Assembly: GCA_937920515.1 (NCBI GenBank)
Contig: CALEUG010000015.1
Location: 251-64,250 of the forward strand
Direction of reading: 5' to 3'
DNA length: 64,000 nucleotides
Source of the DNA: an uncultured bacterium
Lineage (GTDB): Bacteria; Acidobacteriota; Aminicenantia; Aminicenantales; Saccharicenantaceae
Of the stretch, positions 547 to 48,943 are shown piece after piece. The stretch's first letter is position 1, and every line of letters starts with the position of its first letter. The translations under genes were made by a program, and so were the position numbers. Under the pieces are notes generated by a model. The model searched no databases. It worked only from the letters and a program-made list of their open reading frames with translations, and had not been told where the DNA came from.

Positions 547-550
547 TCCA

Positions 551-1018: not shown

Positions 1019-1119
1019 TAAAGGGTCTAAAAATAGGAAAAAGTTTGCTTTATAATTTTATCTAGGCTGTTTGAGTTCCAAGAATTTTGGAATAGATATT
1101 GTGGATTGATATGATAGCT

Positions 1120-10960: not shown

Positions 10961-11036
10961 GAAACATAATTTATCAAATTTGAGCGCCCTGTCAATTCTG
11001 GCAGAAAAATTGTGGGTCATGAGGTCCGGGGTGATT

Positions 11037-12231: not shown

Positions 12232-12451
12232 AGAAAATGCCTCTTATCGGTCCTCCCGAATAATACCTGTAATAACCACAGACCTCATGCCCGCCGCAAT
12301 TTCCGAAAGTTTCGCAGAAAAGCAAGGTCCCGTCTCCGCATATAAAATTAAGGCCGCAGCTTAAGGCAGGCCGGCTGACCGTAAGAAAAAAGCCTGCAAT
12401 GAGAGAGATGGCGATAAGAATTAAAGTTGCCAATCGCTTAAAGTTTAACAT
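12173..12451 (-). CDS. Small peptide (92 aa) with a signal-peptide-like N-terminus and 7 cysteines
   Basis: The N-terminal hydrophobic segment is MLNFKRLATLILIAISLIAGFFLTV. The mature region has 7 Cys and many Gly/aromatic residues (…CGLNFICGDGTLLFCETFGNCGGHEVCGYYRYY…). It lies between two beta-propeller lipoprotein genes. Confidence 0.4.
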   Translation of the reverse strand: MLNFKRLATLILIAISLIAGFFLTVSRPALSCGLNFICGDGTLLFCETFGNCGGHEVCGYYRYYSGGPIRGIFCEYGGAWWGSYCEVVPPMV

Positions 12452-12475
12452 GTTAAACCCCCTTAAAAAATTTAT

Positions 12476-13570
12476 TCATATATCAGCCTCAAAAATTAAC
12501 GGCTGCCTGTTTTCTGGGTTAGTAGCCAGGCCAAACATTCTTCCGACAGGCAAGATAACAAAGCAATCTATGTAAGAGGTAATATCTTGGTCATTAAGAA
12601 TTATCTTAAGCGTTCCGAGGAAATCGGCCTTAAGGTTGAATAATAGAAATTTCTCATAACCAAGGTAGTAGATAGTCCCTTTATAGATTCCAATCCCTCT
12701 GTTCATTCTGACCAACCGAATCTCATTTGGTTTATTCTGTTTTTCAGGCGTGTCAGCCATAATTTCTTTCTGGCGGTCCAGGGCGCGATTAATTTCAGGT
12801 ATATCTGATAGAGCGAGATCTCTTTTGAATATCTCCCTTCCGGTTATCCGATCAAAGGCAAATACTATCGGCAGGCAGGTATAAGCGCCATAGATAACTC
12901 GATCGTCACCAGACAGCTCAACCAGGTTAAAATGCAGATGGGCTATGGATGAGGAACATCTTATGGCTTTTCCGAAAGAACGGATTTGAGTGAAATCATA
13001 ATCAAATATGGAAATAATAGGTTCCTCGTTCATCTCAGCGATAGACCGGGTAACCTTTTTTGCCGGCACAATCAATTGATTTTCCTGACCAATAATGAGA
13101 GCGGGAAGGAAATAGTTTCCTTTTTTTGATATCACTTTTATAAAGGAGCCAAAGCGATTGAATATTTTTATCTCTGCACCAGAGTTGTTTATAACGGCCA
13201 ATATCTTATCGTTGGCGGTAACAACCACGGGGTAATACAGATCTGTTTCTCTCTGACCTATACCTCCAATTATTCTTTTAAGTTTTCCCACCCTATCAAT
13301 TTCCAGGATCCTGTGCCTTTTAGAATCGATCAGATATGCTGTAAGATCTTCAGTCATATGGAAGAGCTTTGTCTGAAAAAATGTCCTGGCAATTTCGAAT
13401 TCCGTCTCAAGCTTCTGCAAATCCAAAAATGTTCTGGCTGTGATTACCTTTTCGGATGAATTCCGATCAGCTGACAAGGGATTTTTCTGGTGGCAGGAAA
13501 TAATAGCACAGAATAATAATATGAAAGGCGCAGCTGCCTTAAAAAAGGCCGATGTTCTGCGTATTATCAT
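12476..13570 (-). CDS. 6-bladed beta-propeller lipoprotein (NHL/TolB-like, BF3164-like family)
   Basis: It has a lipoprotein signal (…FILLFCAIISC). The 364-aa repeat-rich body resembles 11037-12231. It is AT-rich. Confidence 0.5.
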   Translation of the reverse strand: MIIRRTSAFFKAAAPFILLFCAIISCHQKNPLSADRNSSEKVITARTFLDLQKLETEFEIARTFFQTKLFHMTEDLTAYLIDSKRHRILEIDRVGKLKRIIGGIGQRETDLYYPVVVTANDKILAVINNSGAEIKIFNRFGSFIKVISKKGNYFLPALIIGQENQLIVPAKKVTRSIAEMNEEPIISIFDYDFTQIRSFGKAIRCSSSIAHLHFNLVELSGDDRVIYGAYTCLPIVFAFDRITGREIFKRDLALSDIPEINRALDRQKEIMADTPEKQNKPNEIRLVRMNRGIGIYKGTIYYLGYEKFLLFNLKADFLGTLKIILNDQDITSYIDCFVILPVGRMFGLATNPENRQPLIFEADI

Positions 13571-14277
13571 TTCATTTTCCTTTTGAAATTTTTAATTTTC
13601 TCAGTTATTTCTTTAATTATTCTTTCTTCTGTTAATCCCGGGTACTCAGTCCAGATGACCACTCTATCATTATCAATAAGAACAGACCAGGGATCACACT
13701 TTAAATTTTCCTCTGTTATATAAATGTTATCTTCGGGCATGAAGTTTTGAATTAAATACGTATCGAAATTCAATACCTGGTAGCTTTTAATCATTTTGAT
13801 ATCATCAGTAGAAAAAGGCTCCATGAAAAAAATTCCTGTGAACATGTTATCAATTGAATTCATGTAAATTTTCTGGAGAGTTTCAAGACGGTTCATATGT
13901 TTGCAGGTCCGGCAGTAAGAATATGAAGAAAAGAAAGTGAGAATATTTAATTTTTTTAGGGTGTCTGATAAGGACTTTTTTTGCCCGTTTATTTCATAAA
14001 GCGTAAAGTCAGGTATAATTTGCTTTTCAAAAAATGGGGGATGCCAGAAAGGCGGGGTCTTACTGATTTCATCTATATCAAGGTATCTTTCTATTAGTTG
14101 TCTTAGCAGGTCTGGCTGGAGAAGCTCGTTTTCCTTGAAAATGATTTCTTGCTCAGGGCCGACAAGCATGGTGGCGCCACAGCAGCCATTCAGGTTATGC
14201 TTTTTGATAAATTGGGTTATTTCAGCGTTAAAAATACAGCCCTGCTCGCCTGGAAGCAGGGCCTGGGTGAAGGGCAA
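13567..14277 (-). CDS. Thioredoxin-fold protein of the TlpA/redoxin family with a CRTC active-site motif. The true start is probably internal, around MLVGPEQ.
   Basis: The sequence DFTLYEINGQKKSLSDTLKKLNILTFFSSYSYCRTCKHM matches the TlpA-like pattern (x-FW-ATWC-xxC). It overlaps the upstream gene by 4 nt. Confidence 0.5.
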   Translation of the reverse strand: MPFTQALLPGEQGCIFNAEITQFIKKHNLNGCCGATMLVGPEQEIIFKENELLQPDLLRQLIERYLDIDEISKTPPFWHPPFFEKQIIPDFTLYEINGQKKSLSDTLKKLNILTFFSSYSYCRTCKHMNRLETLQKIYMNSIDNMFTGIFFMEPFSTDDIKMIKSYQVLNFDTYLIQNFMPEDNIYITEENLKCDPWSVLIDNDRVVIWTEYPGLTEERIIKEITEKIKNFKRKMK

Positions 14278-25987: not shown

Positions 25988-26440
25988 ATGAGCAAGAGGT
26001 CAGACCAGATTTTTGTTTTATTGGCACTGATGATTTCGTCGCTCGTTTTGGCTGGCTGCCGGGAGCTGGACAAGGGGCCGGGGGCTACGGCTGAGGTTAT
26101 AAAGGTGCTGGAGCTACAGAAAGAAGCGTGGAACCGGGGAGACCTGGAAGGTTATATGGCCGGCTACTGGAAGTCTGACGAACTTACCTTCCAGTCCGGC
26201 TCTAACAGGGTCCGGAGCTGGGAGGCTTTGATGGAACGTTACAGTAAGAGCTATTCCGGAGACCGGATGGGACGGCTTGATTTCTCCGACCTGGAAGTAA
26301 AAGCTCTTGGTGCCAACTATGCCCTGGTTCTGGGCAGGTGGAGCGTGGAGATTCAGGGAGAAAAGAAAGGCGGGGTGTTTACCTTAATCCTGAAGAAGTT
26401 TCCCGAAGGCTGGCGCATCATCCACGACCACACTTCCTGA
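25988..26440 (+). CDS. Lipoprotein with NTF2-like/SnoaL-like fold (DUF4440-like)
   Basis: A lipobox (LVLAGC) is present. The motif …LQKEAWNRGDLEGYMAGYW… is typical of DUF4440/YybH-like proteins. Confidence 0.5.
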   Translation: MSKRSDQIFVLLALMISSLVLAGCRELDKGPGATAEVIKVLELQKEAWNRGDLEGYMAGYWKSDELTFQSGSNRVRSWEALMERYSKSYSGDRMGRLDFSDLEVKALGANYALVLGRWSVEIQGEKKGGVFTLILKKFPEGWRIIHDHTS

Positions 26441-26719
26441 GTCGGGGATTCTGTCCGGGTCTCTTACCGGTCTTCTGCTCGACATGATTTAGAGTGAAAG
26501 AGCATCTGGTATTTAATGTTCTTAATATCCGGGCTCGCCTTCCGGGTTGTCGCGGCCAAGAATTATGATTCCGCAAAAGGAAATTCAGATTCCAGAATAA
26601 CCTGGCCGGAGATTATTGGCTGGTATGAAGAGAGCTTGGGATTCTTTTGATTGGCCGGCGCGGCTTAATAGCCCTATACTTCTGGAAACGGTATCGTCTC
26701 TCCCTTTCTGTTCTGTTGC

Positions 26720-26953
26720 CTACTTTTTATTCCTGTAAATCTCTATAAATTTCTCCAGCGAGCGGTTGTAGGTTTTTTCAATGTCATCAGGGAAAAAGCA
26801 GGCAGGAAGCTCACGGTGGCTCCAGTGATAGGCCAGGCACTCGCAGCAGATTCCCTTGCGCTCGCAGGGTTCCCAGGAGCAGTTGCATCTTTTCAGGTTT
26901 TTTTCAACCCGGCATTCCGCCATTCGCCCTCCTTTTATATTTATATGAGTCAC
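26720..26953 (-). CDS. Small Cys-rich protein (77 aa, 9 Cys; probable zinc-binding)
   Basis: The Cys spacing is CRVEKNLKRCNCSWEPCERKGICCECLAYHW. It is AT-rich and adjacent to the R-M pair. Confidence 0.3.
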   Translation of the reverse strand: MTHINIKGGRMAECRVEKNLKRCNCSWEPCERKGICCECLAYHWSHRELPACFFPDDIEKTYNRSLEKFIEIYRNKK

Positions 26954-26991
26954 GAGTTTAAATAAACGTGGGAACTAAAACTTCTATTAGC

Positions 26992-27951
26992 CTATTCAAT
27001 AAAACTCTTATCTAAATTAATTAATTTCTTGGATGACCGTTCTGCTTCGAATTCTTCTATTCTTCGCTGGGCTAACAACAAATAATCTTTGTTAATTTCG
27101 TAGCCCACATAATGACGACCTGATTTTAAAGCTGCAATGGCTGTTTGTCCACTTCCGATAAAGGGATCAAGGACCACTTCGTTTACAAATGTATAAAGCT
27201 GGATAAGTCTATATGGGAGTTCAATTGGAAATGGAGCAGGATGCCCAATTTTAGTGGCTGATTCTGCCGGGAAGCTCCAAACGCTCTTGGTAAATTCTAA
27301 GAACTCTTCTTTAGATATGGAGCTCTTCCTGTTTGGCTGAGGTTTTCTAGTGAATGATTTCTTTGAAAAAACAAGTATATATTCATGAATATCACGCAGT
27401 ATCGGATTCTTTGCTGATTTCCAGGTTCCCCAAGCAGTTGACGGACTGACACTTGAGCCTTTATTCCATATTATTTCGCCTCTCATAAGAAAGCCTATCT
27501 CTATCATATCCTGGATGATAAAAATATGAAGCGGAAGATAGGGCTTTCTCCCAAGGTTTGCGATATTTATACAGGCTCTTCCTCCAGGTACGAGCACTCT
27601 ATGAACTTCTTTCCAGACCTGAGAAAGAAAGGTTCTGTATTCATGGAGGGTTAGATTCTGATCGTATTCTTTGCCGACATTATATGGCGGCGAAGTAACC
27701 ATTAAATGTATGCTATTATCTGGAAGCTCCTCCATCTTCTCGCTCGATTTAAGAAATATTCTGTCAAGTTTTGAGGATTCCAAATAATTTTCAAAATATT
27801 CTACCGGCTCTTCTTTGGGCATATCATCATAAAGGCGGCTATTATAAAATTTGCTAGAATCATGATTTATTCTTCCAGGCGAGCCGAAAGCACTTGTTTC
27901 TGTGCCCCCGTTCTTTCTCCTGGTACCTGATAATTTCAGTCTTCTTTCCAT
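26992..27951 (-). CDS. Type II DNA methyltransferase, beta-class (N4-cytosine or N6-adenine)
   Basis: Motif IV SPPY (VTSPPYNVGKEY) precedes motif I (DPFIGSGQTAIAA), which is the beta-class order. The gene is AT-rich. Confidence 0.8.
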   Translation of the reverse strand: MERRLKLSGTRRKNGGTETSAFGSPGRINHDSSKFYNSRLYDDMPKEEPVEYFENYLESSKLDRIFLKSSEKMEELPDNSIHLMVTSPPYNVGKEYDQNLTLHEYRTFLSQVWKEVHRVLVPGGRACINIANLGRKPYLPLHIFIIQDMIEIGFLMRGEIIWNKGSSVSPSTAWGTWKSAKNPILRDIHEYILVFSKKSFTRKPQPNRKSSISKEEFLEFTKSVWSFPAESATKIGHPAPFPIELPYRLIQLYTFVNEVVLDPFIGSGQTAIAALKSGRHYVGYEINKDYLLLAQRRIEEFEAERSSKKLINLDKSFIE

Positions 27952-28580
27952 AGCTCAACCCACCTCTTATAAGGACTTATGTTTATAGAATGCTTTTTCC
28001 ATTCAATAGGAATATATTTAGACCCGCTTTTGTTTATAAGGCGAATCATAGCATCCTGAGATAGTTCCACTCCGCGAGGATTTGTCCCTGCTTTTGGTAA
28101 CTTGATATAATTTTCTCTTCCAATTTCTTCGAAAATATCTATTTGATTAACCAGAGGTATATAGAACAATCCTCCTCGGTCTCCCCAATTTATCTGCACT
28201 AAAATCATATCACAACTTGGGCGATAACCTCTTTGGAATTCTTGTGCTTTTTGCGAATCAACTGTCCAGATGAGTTTAATCCCCGATAGCCGTTTACCAG
28301 TTATAGTTTTAATTGAAATGGGAATATTAAATAGTTTAACATCGGCCTCTGGGTTGGTTATGGGTAAGTTAGTATCAACGTTTTCTTCTCCAAATTTATA
28401 AATTAGCAGGGCTATAATTATTTTTTCCCTTGTAGAACCGGCTTCCATTCCCGTTCGGCCAGCTCTTGAACTTTCAATCTCTGCCAATTGAAAAAGATAA
28501 GGAAGACGATTCTGTATCTTTATTATTATACTTTGATCTTCAAAGAGTTGATTTAGTGGATGTGTCAACTTCTTCTCCAC
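27936..28580 (-). CDS. Putative Type II restriction endonuclease partner of the methyltransferase
   Basis: 214-aa AT-rich ORF that overlaps the MTase start by 16 nt. No recognisable general-purpose domain was found. Confidence 0.4.
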   Translation of the reverse strand: MEKKLTHPLNQLFEDQSIIIKIQNRLPYLFQLAEIESSRAGRTGMEAGSTREKIIIALLIYKFGEENVDTNLPITNPEADVKLFNIPISIKTITGKRLSGIKLIWTVDSQKAQEFQRGYRPSCDMILVQINWGDRGGLFYIPLVNQIDIFEEIGRENYIKLPKAGTNPRGVELSQDAMIRLINKSGSKYIPIEWKKHSINISPYKRWVELWKED

Positions 28581-40406: not shown

Positions 40407-41813
40407 ATGCACAAAGAATACCTGACAGTTTCCAACATAGTCGGGCCGCTGGTTATCGTGGAGAAGATTGCCGGGGTCAAATACAACGAGCTGGTGGAGA
40501 TAGAAGACTCTCGCGGTCACCTGCGCCGCGGAACGGTGCTGGAGGTTTCCACCGACCAGGCCGTGGTCCAGGTGTTCGAGGGAACGGTTGGCCTGGACAT
40601 CGATAAGTCCCGGGTCCGTTTCCTGGGTCGTTCCCAGCAGCTGCCGGTATCGGAAGAAATCATCGGCCGGGTGTTTGACGGCTCCGGTCGGCCACGTGAT
40701 AACGGTCCCCGGATCATCGCCCGCAAGCGACTGGACATCAACGGTAGCCCCATCAACCCCGATGCCCGTGATTATCCCTCGGAATTCATCCAGACCGGAA
40801 TTTCCTCCATCGACGGCATGAACCCGCTGGTCCGCGGCCAGAAGCTGCCAATTTTTTCCGGCTCCGGCCTGCCCCACCCGCGGATTGCGGCCCAGATTGC
40901 CCGCCAGGCCAGGGTCCTGGGCAAGGAAGAAAAATTCGCGGTGGTCTTTGCGGCCATGGGCATCACCTTTGAAGAAGCCAGCTTCTTCATTGAAGATTTC
41001 CGCAACACCGGGGCCCTGGAGAGGGCGGTTCTGTTCCTGAACCTGGCCAACGAGCCGGCCATCGAAAGAATCGCCACCCCACGCCTGGCCCTGACCTGCG
41101 CCGAGTACCTGGCCTTCGAACTGGACATGCATGTGCTGGTCATCCTGGTCGACATGACCTTCTACGCCGAGGCCCTGCGCGAAATCTCGGCCGCCAGGAA
41201 GGAAATCCCGGGCCGGCGCGGTTATCCCGGTTATCTCTATACCGACCTGGCCACCATGTACGAGAGGGCCGGCCGGATCAAGGGCAAACCAGGCTCCATC
41301 ACCATGATTCCCATCCTGACCATGCCCGAAGACGACAAGACCCACCCCATTCCTGACCTGACCGGTTATATTACCGAGGGCCAGGTTATTCTCAGCCGGG
41401 AGCTGCATCGCAAGGGAATCTACCCGCCGATAGACGTCCTGCCCAGCCTGTCGCGTTTAAAAGATAAAGGAATAGGCGCCGGCAAAACCAGGGAAGACCA
41501 CGCCGACGTTCTGAACCAGCTTTTTGCCTGCTACGCCCGCGGCAAGGAAGCCCGGGAACTGTCCCTGATCCTGGGTGAGGCGGCCCTCAGCGACCTGGAC
41601 CGGCTGTACCTGAAGTTTGCCGACCTGTTTGAAACGGAGTTTGTCCGGCAGGGCGAATTCGAAGCCCGGACCATCGAGGAGACCATAGAACTCGGCTGGA
41701 AGCTGATGCGCCAGCTTCCGAAGAAAGAACTGAAAAGAATCCGGCCGGAATACCTGGAAAAATATTATTCGCCAGCCGGGCCCGCTGGAGGCGAGAAGTC
41801 AAATGAAACTTAA
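40407..41813 (+). CDS. A/V-type ATPase subunit B
   Basis: The N-terminus [16 protein letters not shown]… matches regulatory subunit B. The ORF-track N-terminal extension is rejected. Confidence 0.9.
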
Positions 41814-42414
41814 GGTGAACCCCAACCGGATGGAGCTGTTGCGGCTCCGCCGTCGTCTGGTCCTGGCCGAACGGGGACATAAGTTGCTCAAGGACAAGCT
41901 GGAAGAGCTGATGCGCCAGCTGCTGGAAACCTCGCGGCGACTGGTAGAGCTGCACGAAAAGATCGACCGGGAATTCGAGATTATTACCGGGGCTACCGCT
42001 GCCGTCCGAGTGGCCCAGCCGTCTTCCGAAATCTCAGAACTCCTGGAAGAGGGCAACCTGGAATTTTCCGTGGAGAAGGGCCGGCTGCTTAATCTAACCG
42101 TTCCCGAGTTTCAGCTGGTCAATTTTCAGCCGGGAACCTATGATCTGTTTCTGACCGAAAGCGAGCTGGACGTGGCCGTAAAACATTTTAAGAAAATTCT
42201 GCCAGAACTCCTGGAGTTCTGCAGCCTCTGGAAAAAACTGGAACTCCTGGCTCATGAAATTGAAGTGACCAGGAGAAGGGTCAATGCCCTGGAATACATT
42301 TTAATCCCCAGCCTCCAGGAAACCATCCACTCCATCTCCTCCCGCCTGGAGGAAATCGAACGTTCCTACCAGGTTCAGCTGATGCGGGTGAAGGAGATTG
42401 TCCGCCACCACTGA
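41803..42414 (+). CDS. A/V-type ATPase subunit D (central stalk)
   Basis: 203 aa with the subunit D N-terminus [19 protein letters not shown]. Confidence 0.8.
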
Positions 42415-42469
42415 TAGTGGTCTAAAATTACTTTACACAAAAAAAAGTATAAAAAAGCTGAAAAAGTAT

Positions 42470-42504
42470 TGACATCCAGTAAAAAAGCTGTATATATACA
42501 ATTG
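42470..42504 (+). promoter_or_regulatory. Near-consensus sigma70-type promoter (TTGACA, 17 nt spacer, TATATA) in an AT-rich spacer upstream of the ATP-grasp/GNAT/KamA cluster
   Basis: The sequence ttgacatccagtaaaaaagctgtatatatac is read directly. It lies about 95 nt upstream of the ATG at 42600. Confidence 0.5.
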
Positions 42505-42599
42505 AAAATGAAAAACAAAAATGAAACTGAAAGCGGCGATTAAAAAATTTCCGGGGGAAGGTATTTAAATATTTTTTAGTGAAGGGTGAAGAAAAGAAA

Positions 42600-43718
42600 A
42601 TGAAAATCGCTTTGCTTTTCAGTTCCAAGCAGGGCATGGCCAGGACGCTGGGACCGGTTCTCTTTGAAGACCGGGTGGAAGAAGGGGAAGAGCCCCCACC
42701 TGATTTGCTGGCTGAATGTGACAGCGATGAAACCATCATTGCCGTTCAGCAAGCCCTCCAGAAGTTTCACCAGGTGGTTCTGATTGAATCGGACGAGCAG
42801 GCCTACCTGCGCCTGATGGCAGAAAAGCCGGACCTGGTTTTCAACATAGCTGAAAGACTTTTCGGGCCAAATCGCGAATCCCACATTCCGACCATCTGCG
42901 AGATGCTGAATATTCCCTACACCGGCTCCGATCCGCTGACGCTGGGCCTCTGTCTGGATAAGTCCAGAGCCAAGGAAATTCTGAGTTACCACCGCATCCC
43001 CAACCCCCACTTCAGAGTGATAGAGAGAGTTGGTGATATTCCATCCAGGCTGAAATACCCGCTGATAGTTAAACCGCTTTATGAAGGTTCCAGCAAAGGT
43101 ATCAGGAATAACTCGGTGGTCAGCAACCGTCGCGAACTCAAAGCCAGGATTGAAGAAATCCGGAGGTTGTACGACCAGCCGGCCATAGTCGAAAAGTTCT
43201 TGACCGGCCGGGAATTCACGGTCGGGGTTCTGGGCAATTATCCCGACCTGGAAATACTGCCGATCGTGGAGATCGACCATTCCCAGCTTCCGGCCGGGGC
43301 CAGACCGATCTATTCCTACGAAGCCAAGTGGGTCTGGGACACCCCTGACCGGCCGCTGGAAATCTTCTGCTGCCCGGCCGACATCTCGGATGAATTGAAA
43401 ACCGCGATTGAGAAAAACGTCAGGAATACCTGCCGGGTGCTGAGAATACGCGACTGGGCCCGGATCGATGTCAGGCTGGACGAGCAGGGTGTGCCCAACA
43501 TCCTGGAAATAAATCCGCTGCCGGGCATCCTGCCCAATCCTGAAGAGAATTCCTGCCTGCCCAAGGCGGCCCGGGCGGCCGGTTATACCTACGACCAGCT
43601 CATCAACCGGGTGGTCTGGGAAGCCGGAAAGAGATACGGCCTGCCGGTTGATTTTTACCGCGAAGCAGTCAGGCCGGCGGTCGGTTCCCTGGGTCTCGGA
43701 GGAGCCGATGGCCACTAA
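42600..43718 (+). CDS. D-alanine-D-alanine-ligase-like ATP-grasp enzyme (paralog 1)
   Basis: The Ddl-family N-domain (…ESHIPTICEMLNIPYTGSDPLTLGLCLDKSRAKE…) and ATP-grasp body (YPLIVKPLYEGSSKGI…) are present. Confidence 0.7.
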   Translation: MKIALLFSSKQGMARTLGPVLFEDRVEEGEEPPPDLLAECDSDETIIAVQQALQKFHQVVLIESDEQAYLRLMAEKPDLVFNIAERLFGPNRESHIPTICEMLNIPYTGSDPLTLGLCLDKSRAKEILSYHRIPNPHFRVIERVGDIPSRLKYPLIVKPLYEGSSKGIRNNSVVSNRRELKARIEEIRRLYDQPAIVEKFLTGREFTVGVLGNYPDLEILPIVEIDHSQLPAGARPIYSYEAKWVWDTPDRPLEIFCCPADISDELKTAIEKNVRNTCRVLRIRDWARIDVRLDEQGVPNILEINPLPGILPNPEENSCLPKAARAAGYTYDQLINRVVWEAGKRYGLPVDFYREAVRPAVGSLGLGGADGH

Positions 43719-44739
43719 CGGTCCTAAAGTCGGAGTGGCTTTCAACACCTACGAGCCTTTCATCTACCGCCCGGAGAAAGTTTCCGAGGACTCGGTGGCC
43801 AGGGTGGCCGAAGTCGTCTGCGAAACCCTGGTCAAAGCCGGCGTTGATGCCAGCATCATTCCTCTGCAGAGAAGCATGTTTACTTTTCTGCGACGGCTAA
43901 AAGAGTTGAACGTGGAGGTGGTGGTCAACCTGTGCGAGGGCTTCTTCGGCAATCCCCAGTGGGAAGCTAACGTGGCCGCGGTCATGGAAATGCTGCACAT
44001 TCCCTTTACCGGGAACAGTTCGCGGACTCTGGCCCTCTGTCAGGACAAACACCAGGCCAAGGCCATCCTGAGTTCTTTTAACCTGCCGGTGGCCGCCAGC
44101 CAGCTGATAACTTCGGCCGAGGAGATGGTTGACCTTAAATTCCCGGTGATCGTCAAGCCCAACTCCGAGGATGCCAGCATAGGCGTCCATCCGGAATCGG
44201 TGGTTTATGACCATGACTCCCTGGCCGCCAGGGTGGAAAAGATAGTCAGGACCTACAACCAGCCGGCCATAGTTGAAGAGTATATCGATGGCCGCGAGTT
44301 TAACGTGGCCGTCCTGGAAGACGGGGAGCCCGGGGCCCTGCCCGTTTCCGAAATAGATTTTTCTAAAATGCCGGAGGGCTATCCCCATATCTGCAGTTAT
44401 GAAGCCAAGTGGTATCCTGACCACATCCTGTATAAATCGACTCCGCCCATCTGCCCGGCCAGAATAAGCAAAGAGCTGAGCCGGTCGCTTCAGGAGCTGG
44501 CCGTCAGCGCTTTCAAGGCCATGGGTTGCCGCGATTATGCCCGGGTGGATTTCCGGATGAACAAAGCGGGGGAGGTCTTCATACTGGAGGTCAACCCCAA
44601 CCCGGACATCAGCCTGGATGCCGGTTATGCCCGGGCTTTAAATGCGGCCGGCATAGATTACGCGGATTTCTGGAAGCTGCTGATAGAAAATGCCAGGAAA
44701 AGGAAAGAAGGCAATGGTAAGGCCAATGGCAAGAGCTGA
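43708..44739 (+). CDS. D-alanine-D-alanine-ligase-like ATP-grasp enzyme (paralog 2)
   Basis: Its architecture is the same as paralog 1 (…LHIPFTGNSSRTLALCQDKHQAKA…FPVIVKPNSEDASIGV…). The start overlaps the upstream stop (ATGGCCACTAA). Confidence 0.7.
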   Translation: MATNGPKVGVAFNTYEPFIYRPEKVSEDSVARVAEVVCETLVKAGVDASIIPLQRSMFTFLRRLKELNVEVVVNLCEGFFGNPQWEANVAAVMEMLHIPFTGNSSRTLALCQDKHQAKAILSSFNLPVAASQLITSAEEMVDLKFPVIVKPNSEDASIGVHPESVVYDHDSLAARVEKIVRTYNQPAIVEEYIDGREFNVAVLEDGEPGALPVSEIDFSKMPEGYPHICSYEAKWYPDHILYKSTPPICPARISKELSRSLQELAVSAFKAMGCRDYARVDFRMNKAGEVFILEVNPNPDISLDAGYARALNAAGIDYADFWKLLIENARKRKEGNGKANGKS

Positions 44740-45196
44740 CCGCCAGCCGGTGCTCGAGCTGGTCCGGGCCACCGGCTTTTTCACGCCGGCCGAAATACAG
44801 GTGGCTGAGGAATTGATAGATATTTATCTTGATAATCCAGGACAGCGCGACTATTACACAGTGGTGGTGGAAAATGAAAAGGGACAGGTGGCTGGCTATA
44901 TGACCTATGGACCGACACCCCTGGCCGAAGGCACCTGGGACCTTTACTGGATTGCTGTGGCCCCGGAAGCCCAGGGCCGTGGCTACGGGCAGCAGCTGGT
45001 GGGCTGGCTGGAAGATGAAGTGAAGAGAAACAACGGTCGCCTGATTCTGATAGAAACTTCTTCCCAGCCGAAGTATCAACCAACCAGGAAATTCTACGAG
45101 AAACTGGGATATACCGAAGTGGCCCGCATCCGGGATTTTTATCGTCCCGGAGACGACCGGGTGATCTTCGGAAAATATTTTCGCTCAAAGGAGTGA
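44714..45196 (+). CDS. GNAT-family N-acetyltransferase
   Basis: About 160 aa. The acetyl-CoA-binding motif region (…APEAQGRGYGQQLVGWLE…) is present. It overlaps the upstream gene. Confidence 0.7.
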   Translation: MVRPMARADRQPVLELVRATGFFTPAEIQVAEELIDIYLDNPGQRDYYTVVVENEKGQVAGYMTYGPTPLAEGTWDLYWIAVAPEAQGRGYGQQLVGWLEDEVKRNNGRLILIETSSQPKYQPTRKFYEKLGYTEVARIRDFYRPGDDRVIFGKYFRSKE

Positions 45197-45208
45197 GAAA
45201 AGGAGACA

Positions 45209-46312
45209 ATGGAAGACTGGCAACGAATCTTAGGCGACAGCCTGCGCACGCCCGAAGACATCGCCGAGCACTTCGGCCTGGACCTGGAAGAGGTCAGGAA
45301 AATTGGCCGGGCCTTCAAGATCCAGATTACTCCTTACTATGCGAGCCTGATCAAGAAAAAGGGTGACCCCATCTATAAACAGGTGGTGCCAGACCTGGCT
45401 GAACTGGCCGAGAATTCCGGCCAGGAGGACCCGCTGGAAGAAGACCTGGATTCCCCGGTCCCCAGCATTGTCCACCGCTACCCCGACCGGGTGCTGTTCC
45501 TGGTTTCTCACAGCTGTGCTTCTTACTGCCGTTTCTGCACCAGGAAGAGGAAAGTTGGCGACCCGGGCAAGATTCATCCCCGCTACATCGAAGACGGCAT
45601 CAACTACATCAGGGACCACCCCGAGGTTCGCGACGTGATCATTTCCGGCGGAGACCCGCTCATCCTGAGCGACGAAAAGCTGGAAGCCATCCTGAGCCAG
45701 GTGCGCTCCATTCCCCACGTGGAAATCGTGCGGCTCGGCAGCCGGGTGCCCTGTTTCCTGCCACAGAGAATTACCGGGAAACTGCTCAACATGCTCAAGA
45801 AGTACCACCCTCTTTATCTGAACGTCCATTTTAATCATCCCGATGAAATCACGCCGGAAGCGGCCCGGGCCCTTAACCTGCTGGCCGATGCCGGCATTCC
45901 CCTCGGCAACCAGACCGTCCTGCTCAAGGGCATCAACGATGACGTCCTGGTTATGAGAAGGTTGATGCAGAAGCTGCTGACGGTCAGAGTGCGTCCCTAT
46001 TACATTTACCAGGCGGACTACGTGAAGGGTACCGACCATTTCCGGACCACCGTGGAGAAGGGCCTGGAAATTTACCAGGGATTGAGAGGCTGGACTTCGG
46101 GCCTGGCCGTGCCCCAGTACGTCATCGATGCTCCTGGCGGCGGCGGCAAAATCCCGCTGATTCCCGAGTACGTGCAGTCAATCTCGGACGAGAAGGTGGT
46201 CCTCAGGAACTATGCCGGTGAGGTCTATGTCTATCCGCAGGTGAAGAGTCCGAAGAAGAGACGGCCACGGGTGCAGCCTCCGTGTTATGCTGCCCCCAGC
46301 CAGCAGCTCTGA
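45209..46312 (+). CDS. KamA-family radical SAM lysine 2,3-aminomutase (short KamA/EpmB-like form)
   Basis: The CASYCRFC (CxxxCxxC) cluster, the KamA N-terminal motif (…AFKIQITPYYASLI…) and the PLP-binding region (…NQTVLLKGIND…) are present. The protein is 367 aa. Confidence 0.8.
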   Translation: MEDWQRILGDSLRTPEDIAEHFGLDLEEVRKIGRAFKIQITPYYASLIKKKGDPIYKQVVPDLAELAENSGQEDPLEEDLDSPVPSIVHRYPDRVLFLVSHSCASYCRFCTRKRKVGDPGKIHPRYIEDGINYIRDHPEVRDVIISGGDPLILSDEKLEAILSQVRSIPHVEIVRLGSRVPCFLPQRITGKLLNMLKKYHPLYLNVHFNHPDEITPEAARALNLLADAGIPLGNQTVLLKGINDDVLVMRRLMQKLLTVRVRPYYIYQADYVKGTDHFRTTVEKGLEIYQGLRGWTSGLAVPQYVIDAPGGGGKIPLIPEYVQSISDEKVVLRNYAGEVYVYPQVKSPKKRRPRVQPPCYAAPSQQL

Positions 46313-46708
46313 GCACCCGGCGAACAGGCTTTTATCGGACGGAAGTTCCGGTCCGGTGGACCGGGTTTTCCATTGAGCCTTTCCTGGCATAGCGGCCGGT
46401 TAGATTCCCCTGAATATGTTGGCCGCCCTGTGGAAACAGGAGAGAAAAACACCGGGGAAGCCCCGTTTACTGCCCGGGTCATCGTGGTATGTCCGACCCG
46501 GTTATTTCTGCCTGTTGTTTTCTCTTCGTTTGCCCTCTGATTTGTCGGCTGCTATCCCGGGGGCACAAGAGCCACGGTCAGGTTCCAGAGCCCGGCGCTC
46601 TGGACTTGCTCGGCTTAGGCCTCTTGTTTGTTTGCCAGCCTGCCGGCTGGAAAATAACGGCCACAGGACAGAATCCCGGGTCTAATTTAACCAGGACTGG
46701 CGCGGGTG

Positions 46709-48943
46709 TCACCTCTGGACCTGCTGCAGGTAACCGGCCAGCCCCACCTGCTGCAGGATGGCCAGGGCTTCCTCGTTCGTCACCCCTTTTTTCAGGCGCA
46801 GCGCTTCCAGTATCCTGATTATGGACAGGGCGACTTCGGCCGTCTGGCCGGCCACGGACTGTTTATCCCTGAGAAATTCAATGGAATCGTAGAGGACGGC
46901 GTTGGCTTCCCCGTAGCTTATTTCCTGGCGACGTCCGTATTTTTTTATCCATTCCGGCTGACGCAGGCAGTCATTGACGTGGGACTGAATCAGGAAGGTG
47001 GCCCGGCCGATGAGCTTGAGGTTGCTGGGGCTGACGTTGGTCATGGTGTTGCCGATGACCCGGCCCAGCCTGGCCATGACCGCGGTGGAATGGGCATTGA
47101 GCACCATCTTCAGGCCGACATTCTGTTTCAACAGGAACGGGTCATTCTCCCGGCCGAGGTTGAGCCAGACCTGAACGGGAGCAGGCTGAGCCTGGTTTAA
47201 GAATGTTCGGTAGTGGTCGTTGATTTTATTTTTCAGGGCCACGATTTGCTTTTCGTTAAGGTCGTTAAGGCCGACCATAACCAGCCTGGCCTGCCTTTCC
47301 AGAAACAACCTGACAAAGCGGCTGAAGGCCGAGTTCGGGTCCAGCAGTTTGTTTTCCTCCGGCGACAGGGAGACCACCACCCCCAGGTCCCCGGGCTGAG
47401 GTCCTCGTTTCTCCAGGTTGAAGGCAGCAAAGGAAAAATCGTAGAGCTCCTGCTGGTTGTTGCCGGCCTTCTTCAGGCTTTCCAGGGCGGCCCGGCGGAG
47501 ATAGGGGTCGTCCACTTCTTCTTCAAAATGCGGCCGGTAGAAATCTTCCCGGAGACCCCGGAAAGGACGCCCCAGGAAATTCAACCAGGCCTGCCTTCTG
47601 CTGGCAGCCGGTGTCCAGACCTGGATCCAGCAGCGGCGGATAGGTTCCTCCACTGTGTCCAGCGGAAAGAGCCTGAAGGTCGGGCTGCGCTCGGTGCTAT
47701 CTATGAATACCGTGATCAGGGCTTTCTCCGCAAAGTAAGTGGAGAAATGATTTCCGGCGTAAGTGTCAGCTTCGAGTGCGGTCCACTCTGCTATCCCGGG
47801 CACGGCGTTTTTTATCCTGGACAGGATCCGGCTGAAGTCCCGGAGGGTTTCCACCAGGTCATACCGGCGGGTAAAACCGATTCTCTGGAGCTCTTTGCCG
47901 CTCAGAAACCCGGACAGAAGGTCATAAACCGCAGCCTGCAGGGCTGCTCCCAGCACGTAGGTTTCGATAGTGGTGGCCTGCATCCGGGTTGAACCGGTTA
48001 TGGCCATTGGCCCGGTGGTCAGGTTGATCCTGGTAATGCCCGGTTCTTCCAGGACCGACCGGCTGCGGTCAAACGGCCTCAACCGGTCGTCGGGGTTGTT
48101 GTAGACAAAATACAGCTTCTGGCGGCTCTGCTCGGGGCTGTAGCCGGGGGCTTCCTTCCACTGTTCCAGGGCGGCCAGGATGGTTCCGATTACCGATGAA
48201 GTCTCCCCGCCCTCGGTAACGCAGATGACCAGGTCACCCTTTTCCACCCCGTGGTCCAGAAGCTGGAGCCGGCCAATGAGCTGCAGGTCTTCAAAGCCTT
48301 CCAGAGAAGAAATCAGGGCCCGGTCGGCCCCGGTCATCTCGCCGATGAGTTTTTCGGCAAGGTCAGATCCCAGATTCTTTTCGACCTTGAGCCAGATGGC
48401 TTTATCCTGGCACAGTGAATTCCAGAACGGACGCCAGAAGGTGCTTTCCATCTGTTTGGCCAGGCGCCCGGTGGCCCCGCAGCCGTAAATGTAAATTTTC
48501 CGGCCGGAAAGGATGGTATTCTTGATTTCCGAGGAAAGGCGCAGCAGGTCCCGGGGGGAATCCGCCAGCTCTTCCAGCCGGTTGACTATATCTTCGTCGA
48601 CTGAAAACAGCATGTGCAGGGCGGCCGGAATGTCAGTCTTGATTCTTTCGCTCAGATTCCAGGTCCGGGGATGGCGCTGCTCGGTCAGCAGGGTATGGAG
48701 CTGAAACTGGGTCTTGTTTTGAACGTAATCGAGAGACTCGGCCGGAACTTCCAGGCCCAGGAGCTGCAGCAACCCGGACTGAGCAGACACCGGTTCCTGG
48801 CCCTGCCGGGCCAGGAGGGTCAGAATTACTACTAATATAGTAGGAATTAGGAGGATTCCGGTCATCCGGACCGGCCACGACCTGTCATTTATTCTTATTC
48901 TGTTTTTCATTTTCCAGTGGCTTTCCGTATTGATGGGTGTCAT
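46709..48943 (-). CDS. Membrane-anchored protein with two MurQ/GckR-like SIS domains (glucokinase-regulator-like duplication)
   Basis: It has an N-terminal TM segment. The first SIS module (IYIYGCGATGRLA…TGSTRMQATTIETYVLGAAL) and the second (…NVGLKMVLNAHSTAVMARLGRVIGNTMTNVSPSNLKLIGRATFLI, close to the MurQ C-terminal signature) are both present. Confidence 0.5.
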   Translation of the reverse strand: MTPINTESHWKMKNRIRINDRSWPVRMTGILLIPTILVVILTLLARQGQEPVSAQSGLLQLLGLEVPAESLDYVQNKTQFQLHTLLTEQRHPRTWNLSERIKTDIPAALHMLFSVDEDIVNRLEELADSPRDLLRLSSEIKNTILSGRKIYIYGCGATGRLAKQMESTFWRPFWNSLCQDKAIWLKVEKNLGSDLAEKLIGEMTGADRALISSLEGFEDLQLIGRLQLLDHGVEKGDLVICVTEGGETSSVIGTILAALEQWKEAPGYSPEQSRQKLYFVYNNPDDRLRPFDRSRSVLEEPGITRINLTTGPMAITGSTRMQATTIETYVLGAALQAAVYDLLSGFLSGKELQRIGFTRRYDLVETLRDFSRILSRIKNAVPGIAEWTALEADTYAGNHFSTYFAEKALITVFIDSTERSPTFRLFPLDTVEEPIRRCWIQVWTPAASRRQAWLNFLGRPFRGLREDFYRPHFEEEVDDPYLRRAALESLKKAGNNQQELYDFSFAAFNLEKRGPQPGDLGVVVSLSPEENKLLDPNSAFSRFVRLFLERQARLVMVGLNDLNEKQIVALKNKINDHYRTFLNQAQPAPVQVWLNLGRENDPFLLKQNVGLKMVLNAHSTAVMARLGRVIGNTMTNVSPSNLKLIGRATFLIQSHVNDCLRQPEWIKKYGRRQEISYGEANAVLYDSIEFLRDKQSVAGQTAEVALSIIRILEALRLKKGVTNEEALAILQQVGLAGYLQQVQR

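What the first reader, a model, noticed from the sequence alone, without database searches (positions are those of the whole stretch)
42470..46312. Uncharacterised four-gene cluster: two Ddl-like ATP-grasp ligases, a GNAT and a KamA-family lysine 2,3-aminomutase
The four genes are tightly coupled, with overlapping start and stop codons. They are driven by a near-consensus promoter (TTGACA-17-TATATA at 42470-42504) in a short AT-rich spacer after the V-ATPase operon. A KamA-type aminomutase with a GNAT is the AblA/AblB logic for N-epsilon-acetyl-beta-lysine, a compatible solute. Two D-Ala-D-Ala-ligase-family ATP-grasp enzymes, which are amide-bond-forming and PylC-like in fold, do not belong to that pathway. 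The combination suggests ribosome-independent assembly of a beta-lysine-containing di/tri-peptide or an N-acylated beta-amino-acid derivative, such as a novel osmolyte, siderophore-like compound or antimetabolite. I do not recognise this gene combination as a characterised pathway.
Basis: inference. Interest (0 to 1): 0.75.

Follow-up and report, generated by a model that had tools for sequence, protein, structure and literature searches.

The report
Conserved beta-lysine peptide-ligase gene cassette
This is a real four-gene operon (two ligases derived from D-Ala-D-Ala ligase, an acetyltransferase and a lysine 2,3-aminomutase) that recurs almost unchanged in bacteria labelled as more than ten phyla. 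I found no described product; it most likely makes a small acetylated beta-lysine-containing peptide.

Summary
Four co-oriented genes lie at 42600-46312: ATP-grasp ligase AG1, ATP-grasp ligase AG2, a 160-aa GNAT and a 367-aa KamA-family radical-SAM enzyme. A conserved sigma-70-type promoter precedes them and a terminator-like hairpin follows.

KamA is about 55% identical to the crystallised Clostridium lysine 2,3-aminomutase and keeps every catalytic and lysine-binding residue. It is not EpmB-like.

Both ligases keep all Ddl catalytic residues but fail every Ddl family cut-off. They have changed substrate-site residues and are not next to murein genes.

AG1-AG2-GNAT-KamA occurs in that order in 64 of 72 informative related loci, with unrelated flanks. 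Desulfovibrionaceae, including the genetically tractable O. alaskensis G20, carry KamA-AG1-AG2-GNAT behind a sigma-54 promoter. Many bacteria fuse AG2 and the GNAT into one protein.

The searchable open-access literature describes no such pathway.

Best reading (confidence 0.5): lysine is converted to beta-lysine, two ATP-dependent amide ligations follow, and an amine is N-acetylated. The product would be a small soluble beta-lysine peptide or amide, possibly a stress solute. The product itself is inferred, not shown.

The parts
42469..42496 (+). Sigma-70-type promoter: -35 TTGACA (42469-42474), 16-nt spacer, -10 TATATA (42491-42496), with TG at 42489-42490
   Evidence: Sequence. The -35 hexamer and GCTGTATATATACAATTG are invariant in 15 relatives while the spacer varies; more distant L042 and L048 have TTGACA-16-TATATT. 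Not called by the consensus scan, whose rule needs T at -10 position 6.
42526..42541 (+). Conserved 16-nt block ACTGAAAGCGGCGATT in the roughly 100-nt leader; function unknown
   Evidence: Conserved in 12 of 12 aligned leaders with one R position. No Rfam match. No significant RNA fold: z=0.62, only 3 predicted pairs and no covariation. An overlapping short ORF is not conserved, since L015 and L017 lack the ATG.
42600..43718 (+). AG1: Ddl-derived ATP-grasp carboxylate-amine ligase, 372 aa
   Evidence: Pfam Dala_Dala_lig_C 5e-35. Below all Ddl cut-offs. Best PDB sequence and fold matches are Ddl. Catalytic residues K121, K158, E198, E205, K243, R288, D290, E303 and N305 are invariant; H63 is replaced by E85 and Y216 by W244. 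Forms a monophyletic orthologue group.
43708..44739 (+). AG2: second, distinct Ddl-derived ATP-grasp ligase, 343 aa; its start overlaps the AG1 stop
   Evidence: Pfam 3e-34. 36% identical to AG1. Catalytic residues invariant. Substitutions relative to DdlB: S150 to A, G276 to D, S281/L282 to A/G, Y216 to W. Monophyletic. Naturally fused to the GNAT in 23 of the best 150 cluster representatives.
44714..45196 (+). GNAT N-acetyltransferase, 160 aa (alternative starts at 44690 and 44726)
   Evidence: Pfam Acetyltransf_1 9e-15. Not AblB: 19 bits against 205. PDB 2r7h E=2e-38; that sequence is 99% identical to a protein cluster holding ABB39838.1 of O. alaskensis G20. Family motifs are conserved across 64 orthologues.
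45209..46312 (+). KamA-family radical-SAM, PLP-dependent lysine 2,3-aminomutase, 367 aa; short form without the clostridial Zn-binding C-terminal domain
   Evidence: TIGR00238 306 bits against 199; AblA 479 against 525; EpmB 234 against 369. PDB 2a5h E=4e-123, about 55% identity. C103/C107/C110, R112, D270, D307 and K314 are kept in 67 of 67 orthologues.
46347..46374 (+). Terminator-like GC-rich hairpin followed by a T-run, 35 nt after the KamA stop
   Evidence: Consensus scan: 8-bp stem with 6 GC pairs. The count of such sites in the region is not above shuffles, so the support comes from position only.

Best explanation
The region is a self-contained biosynthetic operon, one member of a widespread, uncharacterised AG1-AG2-GNAT-KamA cassette.

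Proposed steps:
1. KamA converts L-lysine to beta-lysine (3,6-diaminohexanoate). This step is well supported by homology.
2. The two non-redundant Ddl-derived ATP-grasp ligases each form one amide bond through an acyl-phosphate intermediate at the cost of ATP. The reaction type is supported by the conserved catalytic residues. The substrates are inferred. Extra invariant acidic residues at the donor site suggest a diamino-acid donor such as beta-lysine.
3. The GNAT works in close association with AG2 and acetylates a free amine of the substrate or product using acetyl-CoA. This step is inferred.

The predicted output is a small, soluble, N-acetylated beta-lysine-containing di- or tri-peptide-like amide, made without ribosome or NRPS. 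Because the cassette carries no exporter, immunity gene or regulator and sits among housekeeping genes, the product is most likely kept in the cytoplasm. [quoted passage not shown] This functional assignment is the weakest step.
For: Gene content and domains.

KamA is a lysine aminomutase. It matches 2a5h at E=4e-123 with about 55% identity. The CxxxCxxC motif, R112, D270 and D307 (equivalent to LAM D293 and D330) and the PLP lysine K314 are kept in 67 of 67 cassette orthologues.

Both ligases keep every Ddl ATP, Mg and catalytic residue, but have invariant H63-to-E and Y216-to-W changes and altered acceptor loops. Both fall below all Ddl cut-offs. They form two ancient monophyletic groups.

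Synteny:
- 64 of 72 informative loci have the same order, in MAGs labelled Aminicenantes, KSB1, Caldithrix, Neomarinimicrobiota, Ignavibacteriota, Bacteroidota, Verrucomicrobiota, Kiritimatiellaeota, Lentisphaerae, Planctomycetota and Desulfuromonadaceae.
- The permuted order KamA-AG1-AG2-GNAT occurs in Desulfovibrionaceae and in a MAG labelled Desulfobacterales; a MAG labelled Woeseia has a related but imperfect version.
- Flanks are not conserved across phyla and no transporter or regulator recurs.

Fusion evidence: 23 of the best 150 GNAT cluster representatives are AG2::GNAT fusions. Three of the four fusion contexts examined place them inside KamA-AG1-AG2::GNAT or AG1-AG2::GNAT-KamA clusters.

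HDAC-type amidohydrolase genes abut the cassette's GNAT in two Desulfovibrio species and in the MAG labelled Woeseia. This fits acetylation of a primary alkylamine.

From my own knowledge of the literature: GNAT plus ATP-grasp chemistry makes known N-acetyl-peptide solutes (Ngg/AsnO for NAGGN; NAT8L plus RIMKLA/B for NAAG), and KamA plus a GNAT makes N-epsilon-acetyl-beta-lysine.
Against: - No product has been observed. The substrates of AG1, AG2 and the GNAT are unknown.
- Five of 72 informative loci lack an adjacent kamA (four of them, L024, L026, L050 and L064, were inspected). One of those is followed by an IS200-type transposase. The ligase-GNAT trio might therefore not strictly need beta-lysine.
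- Many carriers come from freshwater, groundwater or digester metagenomes, and no salt-responsive element such as a Na+ or c-di-AMP riboswitch is present.
- In the three Desulfovibrionaceae loci examined the operon sits behind a sigma-54 promoter next to an enhancer-binding protein gene. That fits many signals, not specifically osmotic stress.
- Ddl-type enzymes classically serve cell-wall synthesis.
- The donor and acceptor-site arguments rest on sequence alignment to DdlB, not on a ligand-bound model.
Confidence: 0.5

Rival explanations
1. Homo-oligomer of beta-lysine. The two ligases iteratively or sequentially join beta-lysines, for example through epsilon-amine to carboxyl links as in the streptothricin side chain. 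The result would be a short polycation acting like a polyamine or a nitrogen store. The GNAT, and where present the HDAC-type deacetylase, would tune its charge as SpeG and acetylpolyamine amidohydrolase do for polyamines.
For: - Both AG1 and AG2 carry the same invariant extra acidic residue at the donor site (H63 to E), and AG1 has further acidic residues at the positions of V18 and S19. This fits a diamino-acid donor in both enzymes.
- Acetylpolyamine-amidohydrolase-family (Hist_deacetyl) genes lie next to the cassette in three loci.
- No second amino-acid-supplying gene is in the cassette.
Against: - Two clearly different ligases with different acceptor loops are conserved since before the cassette spread. 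This points to two different bonds rather than iteration.
- No polymer-handling or export gene is present.
- The argument is purely sequence-based.
Confidence: 0.15
2. Modification of a macromolecule. The ligases would attach beta-lysine, or a beta-lysine dipeptide, to a peptidoglycan precursor, another envelope polymer, or a protein. This would be an EF-P-like or RimK-like modification using ATP-grasp chemistry instead of EpmA.
For: - The closest relatives of the ligases by sequence and fold are cell-wall Ddl and VanA enzymes.
- Beta-lysine is used for EF-P modification in other bacteria (own knowledge).
- The GNAT's best NCBIfam hit, well below cut-off, is RimI.
Against: - No mur, efp or epmA gene, or other candidate target gene, is linked in the window or recurs among 117 neighbours from other phyla.
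- KamA is LAM/AblA-like, not EpmB-like.
- The residues that hold the D-Ala2 carboxylate in Ddl are changed.
- Carriers include lineages with ordinary mDAP-type walls, such as Desulfovibrio (own knowledge).
Confidence: 0.15
3. Secreted bioactive compound: an antimetabolite dipeptide or tripeptide, or a siderophore-like compound. It would be made by L-amino-acid-ligase-type enzymes as in rhizocticin, bacilysin or tabtoxin, with the GNAT giving self-protection and a deacetylase releasing the active form.
For: - An L-amino-acid ligase (3vot) is among the PDB hits.
- The tabtoxin-resistance GNAT 1ghe is a weak hit.
- An acetylate-then-deacetylate logic is known for phosphinothricin tripeptide (own knowledge).
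- A permease pair is inserted in the D. psychrotolerans cluster.
Against: - No exporter, immunity gene or regulator recurs.
- Flanks are housekeeping genes.
- Sequence conservation is high across phyla (AG1 53-93% identity). In my judgement this looks more like primary or physiological metabolism than a mobile secondary-metabolite cluster, but that is a judgement, not a test.
Confidence: 0.08
4. [quoted passage not shown]
For: KamA's best-scoring family is AblA. KamA together with a GNAT is the AblAB logic.
Against: - The GNAT fails the AblB model (19 bits against 205) and is 160 aa against a 266-position AblB profile.
- The ligases co-occur with the GNAT and KamA in 64 of 72 loci, and AG2 is fused to the GNAT in many lineages.
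- The ligases fail all Ddl cut-offs.
Confidence: 0.07
5. Lysine catabolism or fermentation, with KamA as the first step.
For: Clostridial KamA, the closest solved homologue, starts lysine fermentation (own knowledge).
Against: No kamDE, kdd, kce or kal genes appear in the window genes scanned or in related loci. Two ATP-consuming ligases make no sense in a fermentative pathway.
Confidence: 0.02

Closest known systems
AblA/AblB pathway for N-epsilon-acetyl-beta-lysine (methanogens, green sulfur bacteria; B. subtilis YodP-KamA)
   Same: A LAM-type radical-SAM lysine 2,3-aminomutase is encoded next to a GNAT. AblA is the best-scoring NCBIfam family for the window's KamA.
   Different: KamA is below the AblA cut-off (479 against 525). 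The GNAT is a different, short family (19 bits against 205 for AblB). Two obligatorily linked ATP-grasp ligases are added, one of them often fused to the GNAT.
Ngg/AsnO pathway for N-acetylglutaminylglutamine amide; mammalian NAT8L plus RIMKLA/B for N-acetylaspartylglutamate (own knowledge)
   Same: A GNAT and ATP-grasp ligase(s), fused in Ngg, build a small N-acetylated peptide solute without ribosome or NRPS. AG2::GNAT fusions here mirror that architecture.
   Different: The ATP-grasp domains here are Ddl-type rather than RimK or cyanophycin-synthetase type. The domain order is ligase then GNAT. A beta-amino-acid-forming radical-SAM enzyme is part of the unit. No amidotransferase is present. 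No Ngg family appears among the 14 NCBIfam hits listed for the GNAT.
D-alanine--D-alanine ligase and Van ligases (Ddl, VanA, VanG)
   Same: Closest relatives by sequence and fold. All ATP, Mg and catalytic residues are conserved.
   Different: Below every Ddl and Van family cut-off. H63 is replaced by E and Y216 by W, and the S281/L282 loop is altered. No murein gene context was seen.
PylB/PylC/PylD (pyrrolysine biosynthesis)
   Same: The logic of a radical-SAM lysine mutase followed by an ATP-grasp ligase that joins the rearranged amino acid to another amine (own knowledge).
   Different: KamA is a PLP-dependent 2,3-aminomutase, not a PylB-type methylornithine synthase. No PylC chain is among the PDB sequence hits at E<=1e-3, and the top 50 fold matches are all Ddl or VanA. 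No PylD is present.
L-amino-acid ligases acting in tandem (RizA/RizB; BacD/YwfE; BL00235)
   Same: Stand-alone ATP-grasp enzymes that build di- and tri-peptides stepwise. BL00235 (3vot) is a weak PDB hit.
   Different: Those belong to strain-specific antibiotic clusters with export or resistance functions. This cassette is widely distributed among housekeeping genes and is tied to beta-lysine formation and acetylation.

Membership tests
KamA family radical-SAM / lysine 2,3-aminomutase | Family HMM score above the curated cut-off (TIGR00238) | tested here: met
   305.9 bits against a cut-off of 199.2; Pfam LAM_C plus Radical_SAM.
KamA family radical-SAM / lysine 2,3-aminomutase | CxxxCxxC cluster motif, PLP-binding Lys, carboxylate-binding Arg, and the two Asp residues that bind the lysine epsilon-amine (LAM D293, D330; roles from own knowledge of the 2a5h structure) | tested here: met
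   C103/C107/C110, K314, R112, D270 and D307 are present in the window protein and in 67 of 67 cassette orthologues.
AblA (N-epsilon-acetyl-beta-lysine pathway aminomutase, TIGR03820) | Equivalog HMM score above cut-off | tested here: not met
   479.3 bits against a cut-off of 525.4. It is the best-scoring family but falls below the threshold.
AblB beta-lysine N-acetyltransferase (TIGR03827) | Equivalog HMM score above cut-off, against a 266-position profile | tested here: not met
   19.1 bits against a cut-off of 205.1. The protein is 160 aa and only profile positions 180-216 of 266 match.
EpmB / EF-P beta-lysylation | EpmB equivalog score above cut-off, and an epmA or efp partner | tested here: not met
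   234 bits against a cut-off of 369.3. No epmA or efp among the window genes scanned or the recurrent neighbours. The rest of the genome was not available.
D-alanine--D-alanine ligase (Ddl) | Family HMM scores above cut-off (NF002378, TIGR01205) | tested here: not met
   AG1 scores 174.5 and 141.8 bits; AG2 scores 163.8 and 144.5 bits. The cut-offs are 243 and 245.65.
D-alanine--D-alanine ligase (Ddl) | ATP-grasp catalytic set (DdlB K97, K144, E180, E187, K215, R255, D257, E270, N272) | tested here: met
   Invariant or nearly so in 82 AG1 and 67 AG2 orthologues. The DdlB reference sequence was verified against 1iov.
D-alanine--D-alanine ligase (Ddl) | D-Ala subsite residues (H63, S150, Y216, S281/L282) and murein gene context | tested here: not met
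   H63 is replaced by E in both ligases and Y216 by W in both. In AG2, S150 is replaced by A, S281/L282 by A/G and G276 by D. In AG1, L282 is replaced by C and the loop carries an insertion. No mur genes nearby.
PylC (pyrrolysine ligase) | Closer to PylC than to Ddl by sequence or structure | tested here: not met
   No PylC chain among the 36 or 39 PDB sequence hits at E<=1e-3. The Foldseek top 50 for the AG1 model are all Ddl or VanA.
GNAT acetyltransferase superfamily | Pfam GNAT domains above cut-off and an acetyl-CoA-binding Q/R-x-x-G-x-G/A motif | tested here: met
   Acetyltransf_1 scores 55.4 bits against 20.7. The motif QGRGYGQQ is present, with its core G-x-G conserved in at least 90% of 64 orthologues. 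Solved homologue 2r7h, E=2e-38.
Ngg-type bifunctional GNAT/ATP-grasp N-acetyl-dipeptide synthase | Sequence membership in the Ngg family | tested here: not met
   No Ngg family among the 14 NCBIfam hits listed in full for the GNAT. For the ligases only the best 25 of 41 and 56 hits were shown, and all of those were Ddl or Van. The resemblance lies in architecture and logic only.
Known anti-phage defence systems (PADLOC) | Any component matching a defence-system model | tested here: not met
   No hit for any of the four proteins or for the downstream 744-aa protein.

The most novel reading that the evidence does not exclude
The cassette makes a metabolite class that has not been described: an N-acetylated hetero- or homo-oligopeptide built on beta-lysine by two dedicated Ddl-derived ligases. 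It would be produced by mostly anaerobic bacteria of more than ten phyla, including Aminicenantes, the FCB and PVC groups and Desulfobacterota. It would serve as a new kind of compatible solute or polyamine-like cation, under sigma-54 control in sulfate reducers.
Probability: 0.5. Interest if true: 0.75.

Novelty: new variant of a known kind. Interest (0 to 1): 0.62.

Why it matters
If the prediction holds, a four-gene unit present in hundreds of species, many of them uncultured lineages such as Aminicenantes, encodes an unknown beta-amino-acid peptide. That would extend the short list of beta-lysine uses, which so far covers an osmolyte, EF-P modification, antibiotics and fermentation.

It would also show Ddl-type ligases recruited away from the cell wall for small-molecule synthesis.

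The question is directly testable:
- The cassette exists in Oleidesulfovibrio alaskensis G20. That strain has a mapped transposon mutant library (PMC4045070) and a solved structure of the cassette's GNAT (2r7h).
- The operon is only 3.8 kb, small enough for heterologous expression.

Tried and rejected
- **Riboswitch or leader RNA.** No Rfam hit lies in 41800-47000 apart from one chance lncRNA match downstream of kamA at E=0.45. The leader folds no better than shuffles (z=0.62). The alignment fold gives 3 pairs and no covariation. Rejected.
- **Leader peptide.** A short ORF overlaps the conserved leader block, but L015 and L017 lack its ATG. Rejected.
- **Additional conserved partner genes.** All-against-all clustering of ORFs from 80 loci and a Pfam census of 117 neighbours outside the Saccharicenans group found none. 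RecG, DegP/PDZ and M24 peptidase recur only within single lineages.
- **V-ATPase linkage.** The adjacency holds only in the Saccharicenans group.
- **Defence system.** No PADLOC hits.
- **PylC-likeness.** Not supported.
- **LysX regulon in G20.** The paper names no cassette gene. The sigma-54 regulome paper for D. vulgaris mentions no such genes.
- **Literature.** Only three open-access papers contain both 'aminomutase' and 'ATP-grasp', and none is relevant. No paper names Dde_3040-3044. The 2009 Iyer/Aravind amidoligase survey (PMC3268129), which may mention such neighbourhoods, is not held.
- **Replacement enzyme in loci without kamA.** None was found. One such locus has an IS200-type transposase after the GNAT.
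- **PspF link in Desulfobacterales.** The only sigma-54-like site there belongs to pspA. Rejected.

Full report
**1. What is in the window**

Four co-oriented ORFs fill 42600-46312.

| Gene | Coordinates | Length | Domain evidence |
|---|---|---|---|
| AG1 | 42600-43718 | 372 aa | Pfam Dala_Dala_lig_C, E=5e-35 |
| AG2 | 43708-44739 | 343 aa | Pfam Dala_Dala_lig_C, E=3e-34 |
| GNAT | 44714-45196 | 160 aa | Acetyltransf_1, E=9e-15 |
| KamA | 45209-46312 | 367 aa | LAM_C plus Radical_SAM; TIGR00238 306 bits against 199 |

- The AG2 ATG overlaps the AG1 stop by 11 nt.
- The GNAT start overlaps the AG2 end by 26 nt.
- KamA follows the GNAT after 12 nt that contain AAGGAG.
- A public gene call for an identical contig uses the same starts.
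- The V-type ATPase operon ends at 42414.
- Closest relatives are MAGs labelled Candidatus Saccharicenans, of the Aminicenantes/Acidobacteriota.

**2. Promoter, leader and terminator**

- TTGACA lies at 42469-42474.
- TATATA follows after 16 nt (or 18), preceded by TG.
- The consensus scan does not list the site because of its rule for -10 position 6.
- In 15 relatives, TTGACA and GCTGTATATATACAATTG are invariant while the spacer and surroundings vary. Two more distant relatives have TTGACA-16-TATATT. I take this as a real sigma-70-type promoter.
- The leader of about 100 nt holds a conserved 16-nt block, ACTGAAAGCRGCGATT, at 42526-42541. It has no Rfam match, no significant fold and no covariation. 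Its role is unexplained.
- A GC-rich hairpin with a T-run lies at 46347-46374 and could terminate the operon.

**3. The aminomutase**

- KamA matches the Clostridium subterminale lysine 2,3-aminomutase structure 2a5h at E=4e-123, with about 55% identity over 343 residues.
- These residues are kept in the window protein and in all 67 cassette orthologues examined:
  - the radical-SAM cysteines C103, C107 and C110;
  - R112;
  - the PLP lysine K314;
  - D270 and D307, which align with LAM D293 and D330.
- From my knowledge of the 2a5h structure, D293 and D330 hold the lysine epsilon-ammonium. From the glutamate 2,3-aminomutase literature, those positions are replaced in that enzyme.
- NCBIfam ranks the families as follows:

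| Family | Score (bits) | Cut-off (bits) |
|---|---|---|
| AblA | 479 | 525 |
| Glutamate 2,3-aminomutase | 436 | 650 |
| Arginine 2,3-aminomutase | 373 | 600 |
| EpmB | 234 | 369 |

- The enzyme is therefore a LAM/AblA-type lysine aminomutase, not an EF-P-modification EpmB.
- It is a short form. The Zn-ligand Cys268 of LAM is Asp here, and the C-terminal CxCxxC region is missing.

**4. The two ligases**

- Both are closest to Ddl by sequence: 36 and 39 PDB hits, with best E-values of 3e-28 and 5e-23.
- The AlphaFold model of AG1 (pLDDT 76) finds only Ddl and VanA among its top 50 Foldseek matches.
- No PylC chain appears in any of these lists.
- Both fail every Ddl and Van family cut-off, for example 174 and 164 bits against 243.
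- I mapped them onto E. coli DdlB. I recalled its sequence from memory and verified it as identical to 1iov.
- Across 82 AG1 and 67 AG2 orthologues, the ATP, Mg and catalytic residues K97, K144, E180, E187, K215, R255, D257, E270 and N272 are invariant or nearly so. Both proteins should therefore be active acyl-phosphate-forming ligases.
- E15, the ligand of the donor's amine, is retained.
- The substrate-site positions differ from Ddl in family-specific, conserved ways:
  - H63 is replaced by E in both ligases.
  - Y216 is replaced by W in both.
  - S150 is replaced by A in AG2, as are G276 by D and S281/L282 by A/G.
  - L282 is replaced by C in AG1, with a loop insertion and acidic residues at the positions of V18 and S19.
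- The extra acidic donor-site residues fit a diamino-acid donor such as beta-lysine. This is inference from alignment only.
- AG1 and AG2 are 36% identical to each other.
- Each forms a monophyletic group in a neighbour-joining tree rooted on DdlB. They are therefore two old, non-redundant enzymes.

**5. The acetyltransferase**

- The GNAT is not AblB: 19 bits against a cut-off of 205.
- It belongs to a tight family with a solved but functionally unassigned structure, 2r7h ('putative D-alanine N-acetyltransferase'), at E=2e-38.
- The aligned 2r7h sequence is 99% identical to the representative of a protein cluster that holds ABB39838.1 of Oleidesulfovibrio alaskensis G20.
- A search of 1.84 billion cluster representatives gives 196 at E<=1e-30.
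- Of the best 150 representatives, 23 are proteins of 487-624 aa in which an AG2-type ligase domain is fused N-terminally to this GNAT. In every one of them the AG2 score exceeds the AG1 score.

**6. Conservation of the unit**

- A scan of one genome per GTDB species with AG1 found 346 loci encoding a relative. The best 80 were fetched.
- Of the 72 loci with enough sequence, the outcome was:

| Arrangement | Loci |
|---|---|
| AG1-AG2-GNAT-KamA in this order | 64 |
| No adjacent kamA | 5 |
| No detectable GNAT | 1 |
| Frameshift-type artefact | 1 |
| AG1 alone | 1 |

- The MAG labels of the carriers are:
  - Aminicenantes and other Acidobacteriota;
  - KSB1;
  - Caldithrix;
  - Neomarinimicrobiota;
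  - Ignavibacteriota;
  - Bacteroidota;
  - Verrucomicrobiota;
  - Kiritimatiellaeota;
  - Lentisphaerae, including a MAG labelled Victivallis vadensis;
  - Planctomycetota;
  - Desulfuromonadaceae.
- Flanking genes are not conserved between phyla. A Pfam census of 117 neighbours shows no recurrent transporter, regulator, murein, efp or lysine-fermentation gene.
- In O. alaskensis, D. mangrovi and D. psychrotolerans the order is KamA-AG1-AG2-GNAT, and a MAG labelled Desulfobacterales has the same order. In D. psychrotolerans a permease pair sits between AG2 and the GNAT.
- The fusion form occurs in both orders: KamA-AG1-AG2::GNAT and AG1-AG2::GNAT-KamA.
- The invariant core is therefore AG1, AG2 and the GNAT, with kamA at either end.

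**7. Regulation and accessory genes elsewhere**

- In the three Desulfovibrionaceae loci a sigma-54 enhancer-binding protein gene precedes the cassette.
- The only exact TGGCA-N6-TTGC match in each locus of 14.5-16.5 kb lies just downstream of that gene. In D. mangrovi and D. psychrotolerans it lies ahead of kamA. In G20 it falls 23 nt inside the called kamA start, so the true start is probably further downstream.
- Expression there is therefore probably conditional.
- HDAC/acetylpolyamine-amidohydrolase-family genes abut the cassette's GNAT in D. mangrovi, D. psychrotolerans and a MAG labelled Woeseia. In the two Desulfovibrio species this gene carries its own additional GNAT domain.
- That suggests the acetyl group sits on a primary alkylamine and can be removed.

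**8. Interpretation**

- Shown by homology: a lysine 2,3-aminomutase, two active but non-Ddl carboxylate-amine ligases and an acetyl-CoA-type GNAT, inherited and often fused as one unit.
- Inferred: beta-lysine is a building block, two amide bonds are made, and one amine is acetylated. The result would be a small N-acetylated beta-lysine peptide or amide.
- The lack of export or immunity genes, the housekeeping surroundings and the high cross-phylum conservation (AG1 53-93% identity) favour a cytoplasmic physiological metabolite.
- Known analogues, from my own knowledge, are N-epsilon-acetyl-beta-lysine (AblAB), NAGGN (the Ngg GNAT/ATP-grasp fusion plus AsnO) and NAAG. These make a compatible-solute-type role the leading guess.
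- No salt-specific signal was found, so I give the whole model 0.5.
- The rivals are a beta-lysine homo-oligomer or polyamine analogue, modification of peptidoglycan or a protein, a secreted antimetabolite, plain AblAB, and lysine catabolism. They are listed with their tests.

**9. Literature**

- None of ten full-text searches found a description of this gene combination.
- Only three open-access papers contain both 'aminomutase' and 'ATP-grasp', and all are irrelevant.
- Papers read:
  - The Pelobacter carbinolicus genome paper annotates only ablA and ablB (PMC3543383).
  - The Na+ riboswitch paper links ablA to osmotic control elsewhere (PMC9337991).
  - The G20 mutant-library paper identifies Dde_3039 as a cutC paralogue (PMC4045070). 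A PFL-like gene lies two genes upstream of kamA in the O. alaskensis-type metagenome contig L082.
- On that basis I infer, without direct verification, that the G20 cassette is about Dde_3040-3044.
- A 2009 computational survey of amidoligases could not be read and may have noted such neighbourhoods.

**10. Verdict**

- The cassette is real, widespread and, as far as I could determine, uncharacterised.
- It is a new variant of known GNAT/ATP-grasp/aminomutase small-molecule pathways rather than a new kind of system.

Noticed in passing
window 42526-42541: A 16-nt block, ACTGAAAGCRGCGATT, in the operon leader is conserved in 12 of 12 aligned relatives. It has no predicted RNA structure and no Rfam match. 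It may be a protein-binding operator or another sequence-level signal.
   Followed up: partly
L082 4488-4502; L084 4457-4471; L089 1153-1167: In three Desulfovibrionaceae loci the cassette follows a sigma-54 enhancer-binding protein gene. The only exact TGGCA-N6-TTGC match in each locus lies just after that gene. In L082 it falls 23 nt inside the called kamA start, so the true start is probably further downstream.
   Followed up: partly
L084 8629-10386; L089 7530-9416; L090 5505-7001: Hist_deacetyl (acetylpolyamine-amidohydrolase-type) genes lie directly beside the cassette's GNAT in D. mangrovi, D. psychrotolerans and a MAG labelled Woeseia. In the two Desulfovibrio species the gene also carries its own GNAT domain. 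In L090 the AG2 gene looks fragmented.
   Followed up: partly
L089 4901-6944: In D. psychrotolerans a permease pair (ArsP_1 plus DUF1980) is inserted between AG2 and the GNAT. It could be a transporter for the product or unrelated.
   Followed up: no
L080 8068-10244; L050 9670-10605: An Ignavibacteriota locus carries two tandem AG2 copies. An Aminicenantes locus without kamA has an IS200-type transposase right after the GNAT.
   Followed up: no
window 46709-48943 (-): A 744-aa protein with no Pfam or PADLOC match lies convergent to the operon. Its family recurs downstream of the cassette in many Aminicenantes loci (cluster 3 of the ORF clustering, which also picked up some antisense ORFs).
   Followed up: partly
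window 10803-10976 (-) and 8781-10733 (-): A cobalamin riboswitch (107.5 bits) lies upstream of a TonB-dependent receptor gene.
   Followed up: no
window 6010-8697 (-): An 895-aa Pat-like protein combines ADP-forming acyl-CoA-synthetase-type domains (CoA_binding, Succ_CoA_lig, ATP-grasp_5) with a C-terminal GNAT domain.
   Followed up: no
window 1-2000, 12001-14000, 26001-28000: Three stretches have low G+C (0.39, 0.39 and 0.44, against about 0.52-0.58 elsewhere). The second holds a 364-aa ORF with no Pfam match (12476-13570). The third holds a DNA methylase gene (26992-27951). They may be horizontally acquired.
   Followed up: no
window 42576-43748 (-), 45230-46039 (-): Long antisense ORFs of 390 and 269 aa overlap AG1 and KamA. 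I read them as shadow ORFs of the coding strand, not genes. The same effect misled a greedy longest-ORF caller in several related loci.
   Followed up: yes
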